Of a DNA stretch of 5,601 nt, positions 203 through 5,464 are shown piece by piece. A program made the translations under genes and the position numbers. Every line of letters starts with the position of its first letter. Position 1 is the first letter of the stretch. Below the pieces are notes generated by a model. It was not told where the DNA came from and did not search any database. It saw only the letters and a list, made by a program, of their open reading frames with translations. Source of the DNA: a virus (lineage: Duplodnaviria; Heunggongvirae; Uroviricota; Caudoviricetes); the IMG/VR virus record IMGVR_UViG_3300015185_000041, positions 1-5,601 of that record. One strand, given 5' to 3'.

Positions 203-215
203 ATAGCAGTGCTAT
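203..215. promoter_or_regulatory. OL-like operator: perfect 13-bp palindrome ATAGCA-G-TGCTAT
   Basis: Same palindrome family as the two sites in the repressor/cro intergenic region (1301-1313 and 1326-1338). It lies just past the terminator of the repressor operon, the position of OL in lambda. Confidence 0.5.
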
Positions 216-227
216 TATCGTGGCAAG

Positions 228-250
228 AAAAAAACCACCCGAAGGTGGTT
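228..250 (-). terminator. Intrinsic terminator closing the leftward regulator-antitoxin-toxin operon
   Basis: On the minus strand the RNA reads AACCACC-UUCG-GGUGGUU followed by a U run (plus-strand A run 228-234). GC-rich stem with a UUCG tetraloop, 15 bp past the toxin stop codon (265-267). Confidence 0.8.
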
Positions 251-264
251 GTTGACAGGAAGGA

Positions 265-555
265 TTAACAGGTTTTGTTTGGATACTGTCTTCGTGAGTG
301 AACTACATTTACGATCTCGATGTTAGATGCTGTTACTCGGTAAAGTATTATGTAGTTAGGATGAGTCACTATCTCACGAAGACTTGGAACTCTTTCGCTC
401 GGTGGGTACAGATAAGGGTGTTCAGTAAGTGACAAAACTGATGTTTCAATGCGTATTTTTAGTCTACGTGCAGCGGGAGGGTTTTCCTTAGCAATATAGG
501 CTACGATCTGACGTAAATCATCACGTGCAGAAGGTAGCCATAAAATGGGCAGCAT
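265..555 (-). CDS. parE: ParE/RelE-superfamily type II toxin (96 aa)
   Basis: Size and motifs (LPILWLPSARDDL..., ...HPNYIILYRV..., ...IEIVNVVHSRRQYP) fit ParE-family toxins. Its ATG shares one base with the TAA stop of the upstream antitoxin ORF (TAATG), the typical antitoxin-then-toxin coupling. Confidence 0.75.
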   Translation of the reverse strand: MLPILWLPSARDDLRQIVAYIAKENPPAARRLKIRIETSVLSLTEHPYLYPPSERVPSLREIVTHPNYIILYRVTASNIEIVNVVHSRRQYPNKTC

Positions 556-3504: not shown

Positions 3505-3755
3505 GTGAATCAAAATGCCAGGTTAATGGCAACAAGATAGAACCATGTGCAGCACTGGCAAAGTCCCTTGAGCGTGATGCTGAATACACGATGCGAAAAG
3601 GTCTGCTGATATACAAAATCTGGAATGAGAGTTTAACTCGCGGTCCTGATTTTGTGATGTTGCGTTCCGGTGAATTTTCTAAATTACCAGTTCGGGTTTC
3701 ATTTTGTCCGTTCTGTGGTGAAAGTCTGAAAACGTGGGAGAACAGAAATGAATGA
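3501..3755 (+). CDS. Hypothetical small protein with putative zinc ribbon (84 aa)
   Basis: GTG start overlapping the upstream stop (GTGA) with a strong RBS (GAGGAGGTGG). Cysteines at C6, C16 and in a CPFCG motif near the C-terminus. Confidence 0.6.
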   Translation: MSESKCQVNGNKIEPCAALAKSLERDAEYTMRKGLLIYKIWNESLTRGPDFVMLRSGEFSKLPVRVSFCPFCGESLKTWENRNE

Positions 3756-4059
3756 AATTAAAGAAATACCAGTAGTACGTGATGAATATGGCTACTGGAC
3801 GCATCCTGAATATGAAAAATTCTGTGACGGTCGGGAATATATTTCAACGGAAGAGTTTAACGCCTGGATGGAGGAAAATAATCTTCAATACGTCCTCTGC
3901 TTCAGAGATGAAGGATGTGCTGACCTTGATGCGTGTGATGCTGATATTTCTGCATGGGAACCGGAACGACCAGAGGGCAATGGATGGTTTATTGGTTCAA
4001 TACATGACACCGAAGATGGCCCGGTTTGTGTATGGCTGAGAAATAAGGCCGAAGCATAA
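3748..4059 (+). CDS. Hypothetical acidic protein (103 aa)
   Basis: ATG overlaps the upstream stop (ATGAATGA); RBS GGGAG with 7-nt spacer. About 25 Asp/Glu against 8 Lys/Arg. Confidence 0.65.
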   Translation: MNEIKEIPVVRDEYGYWTHPEYEKFCDGREYISTEEFNAWMEENNLQYVLCFRDEGCADLDACDADISAWEPERPEGNGWFIGSIHDTEDGPVCVWLRNKAEA

Positions 4060-4158
4060 AGGCTATAAACCGACTAACAACTAAATACTGAAGATTTAAA
4101 TCAGAAACGATTTTTATTAAATCCTTAACCGGAGGGATTCCTGCACCCTCAGAACATC

Positions 4159-4190
4159 AGGAGGCCGTCCGAAAGGGCGGTAGTGAAATG
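4159..4190 (+). promoter_or_regulatory. Translation-initiation element: SD AGGAGG, 16-nt hairpin with GAAA tetraloop, then AUG
   Basis: AGGAGG (4159-4164) lies 23 nt from ATG 4188. The stem CCGUCC-GAAA-GGGCGG (4165-4180, one G-U pair) fills the gap, leaving 7 unpaired nt before the AUG. A second hairpin GAGGG-(9 nt)-CCCTC lies at 4132-4150. Confidence 0.45.
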
Positions 4191-4370
4191 CGAAAATTCA
4201 AAATAATTATTGAAACGGGAATAGCCGGTGGAGATTTCGAGGATGAATTCGAAGTGGATGATGATGCAACACCAGATGAAATACAGGATGAAGCTAAAGA
4301 TATTTTCTTTAACTACTGCAATTACTCATACCACGAAATAAAAGACGAAGAGGAAGAACAAAATGGCTGA
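4188..4370 (+). CDS. Hypothetical very acidic small protein (60 aa)
   Basis: About 20 Asp/Glu against 4 Lys/Arg. Hydrophobic N-terminal strand (KFKIIIETGIAGG) then an acidic tail ending EEEEQNG. Confidence 0.6.
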   Translation: MRKFKIIIETGIAGGDFEDEFEVDDDATPDEIQDEAKDIFFNYCNYSYHEIKDEEEEQNG

Positions 4371-4539
4371 TTTTGGTTCAACTAAATATAACGCCAGTTT
4401 TGAAGAATGGCATGAACTGTTAATGGATTATGCAGAGTTACGCGGTGGAAGTGCCGCTGATGCTGAAGCATGGCGTGATGATTATGAAGCAGGAAAAACT
4501 CCGGTCGAAGCATATTGTGATGAGTGGGGCGATGAATGA
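4363..4539 (+). CDS. Hypothetical acidic small protein (58 aa, absent from the supplied ORF track)
   Basis: Hand translation from ATG 4363: MADFGSTKYNASFEEWHELLMDYAELRGGSAADAEAWRDDYEAGKTPVEAYCDEWGDE, stop TGA 4537-4539. Its start overlaps the upstream stop (ATGGCTGA) and its stop overlaps the next ATG (ATGA). Confidence 0.6.
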   Translation: MADFGSTKYNASFEEWHELLMDYAELRGGSAADAEAWRDDYEAGKTPVEAYCDEWGDE

Positions 4540-4793
4540 GCGAGGTTAATTATCAGGAAGGGCATGAAACGGCGGGGCAAGCAAAAACAGTGGCATGGCG
4601 ATATCGCTACGTGAAAAAAAAGGCGTTACGGACTTTCAGGGGAAGTAGTGGTCTGGTGACTGGAAATATGTACCGAAAAAAGAGGATTGTAACGACAGGC
4701 CGAACTATGAAATTCAGGCCTTATTCACTGCCCCGCCAGTCCCGGTTACATCAGAAGAACTGGTTAAAGCTGTGCACTTTTATGAACAACTAA
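4536..4793 (+). CDS. Hypothetical basic small protein (85 aa); reading frame uncertain, possibly disrupted
   Basis: ATG coupled to the upstream stop. The product is very basic and uses rare Arg codons, while a more protein-like frame with no start codon runs alongside at 4649-4852 (see findings). Confidence 0.35.
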   Translation: MSEVNYQEGHETAGQAKTVAWRYRYVKKKALRTFRGSSGLVTGNMYRKKRIVTTGRTMKFRPYSLPRQSRLHQKNWLKLCTFMNN

Positions 4794-5022
4794 AACGCGA
4801 AAATCCACCAGCATCCGGAAACCTGATTACAGATTCCCAGATAAGGCAATGAGCTACCTGGCGCAGAACGGGCTGATAAGTATGGGGAATGTTTTACGAT
4901 GAATATTTAGACTAAAGAGTTTGTAACGCTATGTAAGTGATTTTTTCTGGTTTAGATATTTATATGTCCGGCCAAATTGAGGTGTGTTTAAATGTAATTG
5001 CACATTGATTGTAGGAGGAATA

Positions 5023-5257: not shown

Positions 5258-5460
5258 TTGCGGGGAAATCTTAGTTAAGTAGAATGACTGCGGGTGCTTG
5301 AGGCTATCTGTCTCAGGCATGAACACCAAAAGGCAGATAGAGAAAAGCCCCAGTTAACATTACGCGTCCTGCAAGACGCTTAACATTAATCTGAGGCCAT
5401 ATCTATGCGACACATAGAGATTAGCCTCTTACGGACCGAAAGGTCAAGGAGAAGCAGGCT
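5258..5460 (+). promoter_or_regulatory. Hok mRNA leader: candidate promoter and structured 5' UTR
   Basis: Candidate promoter: -35 TTGCGG (5258-5263), 16-bp spacer, -10 TAGAAT (5280-5285). 10-bp stem at 5304-5313 paired with 5331-5340, 17-nt loop. Hairpin 5402-5418 sequesters the AUG of the short upstream ORF. Confidence 0.4.
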
Positions 5461-5464
5461 ATGA
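5405..5464 (+). CDS. Short upstream ORF (19 aa) coupled to hok; possible Mok analogue
   Basis: ATG 5405 with GAGG 8 nt upstream; TGA stop overlaps the hok ATG (ATGA). Product MRHIEISLLRTERSRRSRL. Confidence 0.3.
   Translation: MRHIEISLLRTERSRRSRL

What the first reader, a model, noticed from the sequence alone, without database searches (positions are those of the whole stretch)
4132..4190. A GNRA-capped hairpin sits between a strong Shine-Dalgarno and the start codon
AGGAGG (4159-4164) is 23 nt from ATG 4188, too far for direct initiation, but the intervening 16 nt fold into CCGUCC-GAAA-GGGCGG, which would bring the SD to an effective 7-nt spacing. This structured-spacer arrangement is known from a few phage genes. 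The alternative, that the hairpin is an RNA processing or stability element for the downstream acidic-protein transcript, is equally open. A second hairpin (4132-4150) lies just upstream; neither is followed by a U run.
Basis: seen in the sequence. Interest (0 to 1): 0.45.

Follow-up and report, generated by a model that had tools for sequence, protein, structure and literature searches.

The report
Portable ribosome-binding site with looped-out hairpin
A very stable small RNA hairpin sits between a strong ribosome-binding site and the start codon of a prophage gene, and the same unit precedes at least six unrelated genes at the seams of mosaic E. coli prophages; it probably works like the rare "split" ribosome-binding sites of phage T4.

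Summary
AGGAGG lies at 4159-4164. CCGUCC-GAAA-GGGCGG lies at 4165-4180 (-12.8 kcal/mol; no shuffle of 200 folds as well). The only possible start of a DUF7167 gene is ATG 4188. The linear spacing is 23 nt, or 7 nt with the hairpin looped out.

The new result is that this is not a one-gene oddity. The 21-mer GGAGG+hairpin, usually with a conserved ~40-nt leader, occurs in over 220 copies in E. coli/Shigella/Citrobacter lambdoid prophage contigs. It lies between at least 10 unrelated upstream flanks and at least 7 downstream gene families. Homology breaks fall at its edges.

In 185 of 225 copies an ATG/GTG opening an ORF lies 6-11 nt after the stem. The spacers are A/T-rich and carry no ribosome-binding site of their own. 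Paralogues without the cassette have an ordinary one at the equivalent effective distance.

Substitutions are mostly C-to-U in the 5' arm, which keeps G.U pairs. Formal covariation is not significant.

Best reading (confidence about 0.5): a T4 gene 38-like split translation initiation region, reused as a portable cassette and recombination seam. The upstream hairpin 4132-4150 is not supported. No experiment exists.

The parts
4088..4119 (+). Variable A/T-rich left part of the conserved intergenic cassette. It starts with CTGAA and contains the palindrome GATTTAAATC (4093-4102).
   Evidence: An alignment of 24 different contexts shows similarity beginning at CTGAA, in two or three sequence versions. 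No promoter is predicted on the + strand. Function unknown.
4120..4158 (+). Conserved leader AATCCTTAACCGGAGGGATTCCTGCACCCTCAGAACATC. It contains a second SD-like CGGAGGG at 4130-4136.
   Evidence: Present in about 85% of cassette copies at 96% mean column identity. CGGAGGG binds the 16S 3' tail at -10.0 kcal/mol. It is absent from the minimal form in ArgO145/Stx phages.
4132..4150 (+). The 'second hairpin' of the finding (GAGGG/CCCTC, 9-nt loop). Not supported as a structure.
   Evidence: z = -0.7. The frequent variant GGATGG (21 copies) and the CCATC variants break it.
4159..4164 (+). Shine-Dalgarno sequence AGGAGG.
   Evidence: -10.3 kcal/mol duplex with the 16S 3' tail. GGAGG is invariant in 51 distinct cassette haplotypes, although the anchor used to collect them partly forces this.
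4165..4180 (+). Hairpin CCGUCC-GAAA-GGGCGG (7 pairs if G4164.U4181 is counted). The canonical form elsewhere is CCGCCC-GAAA-GGGCGG.
   Evidence: pair probability at least 0.945 in all six main variants of the 63-nt core. Median probability is 0.998 in 77 natural contexts. Variation is tallied.
4181..4187 (+). A/T-rich 7-nt spacer UAGUGAA between the stem and the start codon.
   Evidence: It contains no SD-like site. The equivalent spacers in other gene families are 6-11 nt.
4188..4370 (+). 60-aa acidic protein of family DUF7167, the gene served by the cassette in this window.
   Evidence: Pfam PF23768, E = 1.2e-14, profile positions 1-60 matched from residue 2. RefSeq annotates it as a 'DUF7167 family protein'.
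4363..4539 (+). 58-aa ORF overlapping the end of DUF7167 by 8 nt. It travels with DUF7167 as one module.
   Evidence: the two ORFs sit together in 640R1 and ArgO145, and homology runs from 4157 to about 4557. No Pfam match.

Best explanation
The hairpin is the core of a conserved, portable translation-initiation cassette: leader, AGGAGG, C(GAAA)G hairpin, then UA.

On the early-operon mRNA the 16-18 nt hairpin folds on itself and is extruded. AGGAGG, 23 nt from the AUG in the linear sequence, then lies an effective 6-7 nt from AUG 4188, so it can pair with 16S rRNA while the start codon sits in the P site. This is the 'split' initiation region shown experimentally for T4 genes 38 and 25.

The identical cassette precedes many unrelated accessory genes. 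It therefore also acts as a patch of homology at which lambdoid prophages exchange gene modules.

Shown here: the anatomy, the stability, the constant geometry in front of at least 7 gene families, the absence of another SD in the spacers, and the homology breakpoints at the cassette edges.

Inferred: that ribosomes use AGGAGG across the hairpin, that the hairpin is required, and that recombination actually occurs inside the cassette.
For: 1. Geometry and stability. The linear spacing is 23 nt and the spacing after the stem is 7 nt. The hairpin is -12.8 kcal/mol with z = -3.9.

2. Start codons follow the cassette. Of 225 copies, 185 have an ATG/GTG opening an ORF of at least 40 aa 5-11 nt after the stem (6 nt: 36; 7: 102; 8: 10; 9: 26; 10: 1; 11: 10). 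Random positions give 6.4%. Most of the other 40 copies keep the same start codon in front of a decayed ORF.

3. The downstream families are unrelated: DUF7167, DUF4014, DUF551/Ea22-like, a 43-aa protein, a 196-aa protein, a small terminase and antiterminator Q.

4. The spacers (UAGUGAA, UAAGAA, AACAGAUA, UAAUGAAAA and others) have no SD.

5. DUF4014 and DUF551-type paralogues without the cassette carry GGAG/GGGAG/AAGGA 5-9 nt from the same start.

6. Variation is strand-asymmetric. C-to-U changes in the 5' arm, which keep G.U pairs, are frequent (roughly 10-20% of copies). G-to-A changes in the 3' arm are rare (each seen in 1-3 copies). One G-C to A-U double change occurs, together with its intermediate. 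Nucleotide diversity is 0.015-0.03 in the loop and 3' arm against 0.21 at third codon positions.

7. In silico, the hairpin forms with median probability 0.998 in 77 contexts. Deleting it or mutating it lowers the predicted accessibility of the SD about 10-fold.

8. A mechanistic precedent exists in T4 genes 38 and 25 (PMC3014915).

9. Mosaic role. There are 51 combinations of far-upstream flank, leader and downstream gene. Homology breaks fall at 4157 and 4180. Some phages carry two copies 1064 bp apart flanking a 3-gene module.
Against: - There is no experimental evidence, and no paper in the searched library holds the hairpin sequence.
- Covariation is not significant: 96.8% of cells are paired, but there is only one compensatory pair and 223 of 500 shuffles reach it. 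What is conserved is the sequence, not merely the structure.
- The antiterminator-Q class has its own GGAG in an 11-nt spacer, so there the cassette SD is redundant.
- Two copies (L093 and Citrobacter L263) keep a perfect hairpin with no start codon after it.
- A cryptic SD-like AGGGCGGUA (-7.8 kcal/mol) lies in the 3' arm at canonical distance.
- With the leader present, the SD is predicted to be mostly paired (median probability unpaired 0.055; 0.011 in the window).
- The loop is not always GNRA: GGCA and UAAA variants occur.
Confidence: 0.5

Rival explanations
1. The conserved 21-100 nt block is above all a DNA-level recombination seam, a 'boundary' or 'linker' sequence. Phage recombinases cross over in it, and it persists because exchange keeps homogenising it. 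The hairpin is incidental to that role.
For: Homology breakpoints lie exactly at its edges, and there are 51 flank combinations. Conservation is at the sequence level with no significant covariation. Copies with a reverse-oriented two-gene insert directly after the stem have no start codon. The idea of short conserved boundary sequences in phage mosaicism is established (PMC3029335).
Against: This does not explain why the block always carries a strong SD on the transcribed strand, nor why start codons sit 6-11 nt behind it with SD-less spacers. It also does not explain why substitutions are strand-asymmetric, with C-to-U tolerated and G-to-A rare. It is not exclusive of the best explanation.
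Confidence: 0.15
2. The hairpin is an mRNA stability or processing element, such as a barrier to 3'-5' exonucleases for the upstream message or a protective 5' stem after cleavage in the A/U-rich leader. Translation of the downstream gene does not depend on it.
For: It is a very stable C(GAAA)G hairpin without a U-run. It is retained where no gene follows and where the gene has its own SD (Q class). An A/U-rich segment lies upstream at 4088-4119.
Against: AGGAGG always abuts the stem on its 5' side. The downstream genes otherwise lack any SD, so they would be left without a ribosome-binding site. The stem-to-start distance is tightly constrained to 6-11 nt.
Confidence: 0.15
3. The hairpin is an operator for a trans-acting RNA-binding regulator, from the phage or the host, that co-regulates translation of all genes carrying the cassette.
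For: Conservation is at the sequence level and includes the loop. Genomes hold up to 7 places matching window 4100-4400, and single phages carry two copies. The hairpin sits directly between SD and AUG, where a bound protein would block initiation.
Against: There is no candidate protein. The loop variants GGCA and UAAA and several 5'-arm variants are tolerated. Rfam finds no known protein-binding motif here. It is unlike lambda boxB: the loop is 4 nt rather than 5, no boxA lies nearby, and the position is wrong.
Confidence: 0.08
4. The hairpin represses translation. The functional SD would be the cryptic AGGGCGGU in the 3' arm, 6 nt from the AUG, which the stem hides. AGGAGG would be a standby or decoy site.
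For: The 3' arm binds the 16S tail at -7.8 kcal/mol and lies at canonical distance.
Against: Opening the stem costs about 12.8 kcal/mol for a -7.8 site, while a free -10.3 site lies next to it. Paralogues without the hairpin use ordinary SDs, so there is no sign that low expression is selected.
Confidence: 0.05
5. The hairpin is an intrinsic transcription terminator or attenuator.
For: The same 21-mer occurs in unrelated bacteria as part of true terminators, GGAGGCC...GGCCUCC followed by a U-run.
Against: In the phage cassette no U-run follows and GGAGG has no CCUCC partner. The gene starts 7 nt later, within the same operon.
Confidence: 0.02

Closest known systems
Split translation initiation regions of phage T4 genes 38 and 25 (Nivinskas et al. 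1999; Malys & Nivinskas 2009, as reviewed in PMC3014915)
   Same: The SD is too far from the AUG (22 and 27 nt in T4, 23 nt here). An intervening local hairpin brings it to a functional distance (5 and 11 nt in T4, 7 nt here). Both occur in phages of E. coli.
   Different: The T4 cases are single genes of virulent T-even phages, each with its own hairpin, and are proven by mutagenesis and DMS probing. Here one identical hairpin+SD serves at least 6-7 unrelated genes of temperate lambdoid prophages, and nothing is proven experimentally.
Short conserved 'boundary' or 'linker' sequences at mosaic junctions of lambdoid phages (concept cited in PMC3029335; original HK620 work recalled from my own knowledge, not read here)
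   Same: A short conserved block lies at gene boundaries between otherwise unrelated modules, with homology breaking at its edges.
   Different: Here the block has a specific, recognisable anatomy (SD plus extruded hairpin) and a plausible RNA-level function. I could not check whether this very sequence was among those described.
Lambda-type nut sites (boxA + boxB hairpin with a GNRA-like fold)
   Same: A small G+C-rich hairpin with a purine-rich GAAA-type loop in an early lambdoid transcript.
   Different: BoxB has a 5-nt loop and a 5-bp stem, is preceded by boxA, and lies just downstream of the early promoters. Here the loop is 4 nt, no boxA lies nearby, the position is after the replication genes, and the copies sit directly in front of start codons.
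Intrinsic terminators built on the same hairpin in other bacteria
   Same: The identical 21-mer GGAGGCCGCCCGAAAGGGCGG occurs in them.
   Different: There GGAGG pairs with a downstream CCUCC and a U-run follows. In the phage cassette neither is present. These are chance or convergent matches, not homologues.

Membership tests
Split SD-AUG initiation region with intervening hairpin (T4 gene 38/25 type) | The linear SD-to-start distance is beyond the functional range (more than about 15 nt). | tested here: met
   23 nt lie between G4164 and A4188.
Split SD-AUG initiation region with intervening hairpin (T4 gene 38/25 type) | A stable local hairpin lies wholly within the spacer. | tested here: met
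   -12.8 kcal/mol, z = -3.9, 92% of the ensemble. Probability at least 0.945 in all main variants. Median 0.998 in 77 contexts.
Split SD-AUG initiation region with intervening hairpin (T4 gene 38/25 type) | The effective spacing with the hairpin looped out falls in the functional range (about 5-11 nt). | tested here: met
   7 nt here, and 6-11 nt in 185 of 225 copies across at least 7 gene families.
Split SD-AUG initiation region with intervening hairpin (T4 gene 38/25 type) | No other usable SD lies at normal distance from the start. | tested here: inconclusive
   The spacers have no SD-like site. However, a -7.8 kcal/mol site (AGGGCGGUA) lies inside the 3' arm, and the Q-gene class has its own GGAG.
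Split SD-AUG initiation region with intervening hairpin (T4 gene 38/25 type) | Pairing of the hairpin is conserved among relatives through compensatory change. | tested here: inconclusive
   96.8% of cells are paired, G.U-preserving C-to-U changes are common, and there is one G-C to A-U double change. This does not exceed shuffles (223 of 500).
Split SD-AUG initiation region with intervening hairpin (T4 gene 38/25 type) | Destabilising the stem lowers translation and compensatory mutations restore it. | not testable with these tools
   This needs reporter fusions and toeprinting.
Boundary/linker sequence of lambdoid mosaics | A short conserved block lies between flanks that are unrelated in different phages. 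| tested here: met
   22 far-upstream clusters (some of them near-duplicates), at least 7 downstream gene families and 51 combinations. Megablast homology ends at 4180 or starts at 4157 or 4116.
Boundary/linker sequence of lambdoid mosaics | Crossovers actually take place within the block. | not testable with these tools
   This is inferred from breakpoint positions only.
Intrinsic (Rho-independent) terminator | A G+C-rich hairpin is followed directly by a U-run. | tested here: not met
   The stem is followed by UAGUGAAAUG. The scan finds 0 terminators in 3700-4900.
Lambda-type nut site | A boxA (CGCTCTTA-like) lies upstream of a boxB hairpin with a 5-nt loop, just downstream of an early promoter. 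| tested here: not met
   The loop is 4 nt. No boxA-like match lies anywhere between 3129 and 5601. The site lies about 2.5 kb downstream of the cro-like gene.

The most novel reading that the evidence does not exclude
The cassette is a dedicated 'plug-and-play' unit of lambdoid prophages. It would be a self-folding, context-insulated ribosome-binding site whose invariant sequence also serves as the homology patch for Red/RecET-type recombinases. Accessory genes and whole small modules could then be swapped between prophages and expressed at once in any context, functionally like integron cassettes but without an integrase. All genes carrying the cassette might also be co-regulated through the hairpin.
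Probability: 0.15. Interest if true: 0.7.

Novelty: new member of a known kind. Interest (0 to 1): 0.45.

Why it matters
Split ribosome-binding sites with an extruded hairpin are textbook curiosities known from two T4 genes. If this cassette works the same way, the design is common. A 301-nt stretch holding the cassette and the DUF7167 gene matches 2645 of 5426 complete E. coli genomes, including Shiga-toxin phages.

The cassette is also reused as a module in front of many unrelated genes. That would give a concrete, testable example of a regulatory sequence doubling as a recombination seam in phage mosaicism. It would also supply a natural, compact, context-independent ribosome-binding-site part.

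For annotation, it explains why these small prophage genes appear to lack a ribosome-binding site at the usual distance.

Tried and rejected
- **Rfam.** A search of the whole window at E up to 10 finds nothing at 4100-4200; only sok RNA at 5292-5463.
- **Terminator and promoter scans** of 3700-4900 find no terminator, and no promoter on the + strand.
- **Upstream hairpin 4132-4150.** It is no better than shuffles, and common variants break it. Rejected.
- **Leader as an anti-SD switch.** A long-range pairing of 4130-4143 with 4158-4171 dominates one fold of 4060-4260. However, it reaches only P = 0.019 for the window variant in the 63-nt core and is negligible in the canonical sequence (-14.1 against -25.4 kcal/mol). 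Rejected as a conserved switch.
- **Small upstream ORFs.** Neither the frame ending at TAG 4181 nor the stretch after the leader GGAGGG has an ATG, GTG or TTG (read).
- **Other hairpin sequences in the same SD-hairpin-start design.** None recurs in 1.14 Mb of related phage DNA, so there are no independent stems for covariation.
- **Scan of 185,579 species genomes for the 21-mer.** Of 72 hits, only Shigella flexneri, Citrobacter braakii and a probable contaminant contig hold the real element. The rest are chance matches or terminators.
- **E. coli K-12.** The Rac and Qin prophages lack the element, so no K-12 data apply.
- **Literature.** No paper holds the hairpin sequence or the term DUF7167.
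- **Distant DUF7167 homologues.** The search for related loci returned only 98-100% identical genes, so it gave no divergent leaders.
- **Reverse-oriented two-gene insert** after the hairpin in L093: no PADLOC or Pfam match.

Full report
**Setting.** The window is the early region of a lambdoid (Rac/Qin-like) E. coli prophage. It holds a toxin-antitoxin pair and a cI-like repressor on the minus strand. A plus-strand operon follows: cro-like, cII-like, replication O-like and LygF-like genes, then several small ORFs. The finding lies in the 128-nt gap between a 103-aa ORF (3748-4059) and a 60-aa acidic ORF (4188-4370).

**Observation.**
- AGGAGG is at 4159-4164.
- CCGTCC (4165-4170) pairs with GGGCGG (4175-4180) around the loop GAAA. 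G4164.U4181 is a possible seventh pair.
- ATG 4188 is the first start codon after the in-frame stop at 4089-4091, and the ORF contains no other ATG.
- The protein matches Pfam DUF7167 (E = 1.2e-14) from residue 2 to profile position 1, so the start is right.
- The hairpin folds at -12.8 kcal/mol and holds 92% of the ensemble; none of 200 shuffles folds as well (z = -3.9).
- It is the third most stable 24-nt fold among 11,154 windows on both strands.
- No T-run follows and no terminator is predicted.
- The upstream hairpin 4132-4150 exists but is not better than chance (z = -0.7).

**The element is a repeated cassette.**
- Megablast against phages showed homology that stops or starts at the hairpin. 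Rac-SA53 matches window 3700-4180 and then diverges. 640R1 and its relatives match from 4116. ArgO145 and Stx2a phages match only from 4157.
- In complete E. coli genomes, 2645 of 5426 match window 4100-4400. Some match only 4100-4190 and then carry a DUF4014 gene. Others match only about 4116-4188, with nothing annotated under the match.
- Pattern scans of IMG/VR, with and without the hairpin fixed, gave over 220 copies.
- Clustering the flanks gave 22 far-upstream clusters (at least 10 clearly unrelated), 5 leader classes and 16 downstream classes, in 51 combinations.
- An alignment of 24 distinct contexts shows the conserved block. It has an A/T-rich left part starting CTGAA (window 4088). 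A nearly invariant leader AATCCTTAACCGGAGGGATTYCTGCACCCTCAGAACATC follows (4120-4158). Then come AGGAGG, the hairpin and UA.
- A minimal form, about 15% of copies (ArgO145/Stx phages), has only AGGAGG plus the hairpin, placed 6 nt after the stop codon of the upstream gene.
- Some phages carry two copies 1064 bp apart that flank a three-gene module.
- Among 185,579 species genomes, the true element occurs only in Shigella flexneri, Citrobacter braakii and a probable contaminant contig. The other 69 matches to the 21-mer are chance hits or real terminators, in which GGAGG pairs with CCUCC and a U-run follows.

**What follows the hairpin.**
- In 185 of 225 copies an ATG or GTG opening an ORF of at least 40 aa lies 5-11 nt after the stem (6 nt: 36; 7: 102; 8: 10; 9: 26; 10: 1; 11: 10). 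Random positions in the same DNA give 6.4%.
- Most of the other 40 copies keep the same start codon in front of a decayed ORF.
- The genes are unrelated: DUF7167, DUF4014, DUF551/Ea22-like, a 43-aa protein, a 196-aa protein, a P2-type small terminase (one case) and antiterminator Q.
- Except for Q, which has its own GGAG in an 11-nt spacer, the spacers are A/T-rich with no SD.
- Paralogues in the same phage collection that lack the cassette have ordinary SDs. DUF4014 genes have GGAG or GGGAG 5-7 nt from the start. DUF551-type genes have AAGGA 8-9 nt from the start.
- With the hairpin looped out, the cassette therefore reproduces the ordinary geometry.

**Evidence on structure.**
- When the hairpin was left free in the search pattern, its variants were dominated by C-to-U changes in the 5' arm, which keep G.U pairs. 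CCGTCC makes up about 20% of copies and CCGCCT about 10%.
- G-to-A changes in the 3' arm, which break pairs, are each seen in 1-3 copies.
- One G-C pair is replaced by A-U (CCACCC...GGGTGG), and its intermediate is also present.
- Within the DUF7167 context, nucleotide diversity is 0.015-0.03 in the loop and 3' arm and 0.10 in the 5' arm. It is 0.21 at third codon positions.
- The asymmetry is what selection on a plus-strand RNA helix would give. It is not expected for a DNA palindrome.
- The copies are not independent, however, and the formal pair count on 51 distinct haplotypes is not significant. 96.8% of cells are paired, there is one compensatory pair, and 223 of 500 shuffles reach that number.
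- No other stem sequence recurs in the same SD-hairpin-start design in 1.14 Mb of these phages. This is one sequence family, conserved as a sequence.
- The loop is GAAA in nearly all copies, but GGCA and UAAA variants occur.

**Modelling.**
- The hairpin forms with median probability 0.998 in 77 natural contexts. Mutating its 3' arm or deleting it lowers the predicted probability that AGGAG is unpaired from 0.055 to 0.003-0.005.
- AGGAGG binds the 16S tail at -10.3 kcal/mol. A second SD-like CGGAGGG in the leader binds at -10.0. A cryptic AGGGCGGUA in the 3' arm binds at -7.8, but it is locked in the stem.
- A long-range pairing of the leader with the SD and the 5' arm appeared in one fold of the window variant. 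It is negligible in the canonical sequence, so I do not propose a switch.

**Mechanism.**
- The best-supported explanation is a split translation initiation region. The hairpin is extruded, so AGGAGG and the AUG are spaced 6-7 nt apart on the ribosome.
- This was shown for T4 gene 38 (22 nt reduced to 5) and gene 25 (27 nt reduced to 11) by mutagenesis and probing (PMC3014915).
- The cassette is also a mosaic seam. This fits the old proposal of short conserved boundary sequences at which homologous recombination joins modules (PMC3029335). Related papers on Red- and Rad52-type recombinases are listed.
- The two roles are compatible. A self-folding ribosome-binding site that works in any context is exactly the kind of sequence that can be shared by many genes and then serve as homology.
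- Points against: no experiment exists; covariation is not significant; the Q class has a redundant SD; two copies are followed by a reverse-oriented insert and no start codon; and SD accessibility is predicted to be low when the leader is present.
- The rivals are a DNA-level seam only, an RNA stability or processing element, an operator for a binding protein, a repressor of a cryptic SD, and a terminator. They are listed with their tests. The terminator and nut-site readings fail defining features.

**Novelty and verdict.**
- The mechanism would be a new member of a known kind, the T4-type split initiation region, here in temperate lambdoid prophages.
- What is new, and undescribed in the searched literature, is that one identical SD-hairpin unit is reused in front of many unrelated genes and marks mosaic junctions in a large share of E. 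coli genomes.
- Interest is moderate (0.45). The case is easy to test and the mechanism is not exotic. It generalises a rarity and links gene expression to phage mosaicism.

Noticed in passing
window 5292-5463 (+): There is a strong match to Rfam sok antitoxin RNA (RF01794, 106.7 bits, E = 2.8e-24). This indicates a hok/sok-type toxin-antitoxin locus at the right end of the window. Related phages annotate a 'host killer protein' here.
   Followed up: no
window 4536-4900 (+): The 85-aa ORF 4536-4793 is a frameshifted remnant of an Ea22-like/DUF551-type gene. After ...AWRYRYVKK, at an A-run (4614-4622), the homologous reading continues in another frame (WSGDWKYVPKKEDCNDRPNYEIQALFTAPPVPVTSEELVKAVHFYEQLKREN) with an internal stop.
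   Followed up: partly
L093 12054-13550 (and Citrobacter braakii L263): Directly after the hairpin, in place of a plus-strand gene, lies a reverse-oriented two-gene insert: a 184-aa membrane protein and a 310-aa protein. Neither has a Pfam or PADLOC match. It may be an uncharacterised moron, and its junction is exactly the 3' end of the stem.
   Followed up: partly
window 4130-4136 (+): A second SD-like site, CGGAGGG (-10.0 kcal/mol with the 16S tail), lies in the conserved leader 51 nt upstream of the AUG. No start codon follows it. It might be a ribosome standby site; this is unexplained.
   Followed up: partly
window 4088-4104 (+): The left edge of the conserved intergenic block carries an A/T-rich inverted repeat: CTGAAGATTTAAATCAG here and CTGAATAATTAAATTCAG in other phages. 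It could be a protein-binding site on DNA. No promoter is predicted.
   Followed up: no
window 205-228 (-): CAACCACCUUCGGGUGGUUUUUUU on the minus strand is a textbook intrinsic terminator. It lies just downstream of the RelE/ParE-like toxin gene (265-555, minus strand).
   Followed up: no
L001 (Rac-SA53) 1981-2775: In phage Rac-SA53 an IS1 element is inserted 29 nt after the hairpin. It cuts the 43-aa MLTLKHF... ORF that follows the cassette in other phages.
   Followed up: partly
phage record PP818812.1 (H5): 'Actinobacillus phage vB_Apl-pPE4' carries this E. coli prophage module at 94.6% identity. A 'Collinsella sp.' MAG contig (L269) carries it too. Both look like misattributed or contaminant E. 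coli prophage DNA.
   Followed up: no
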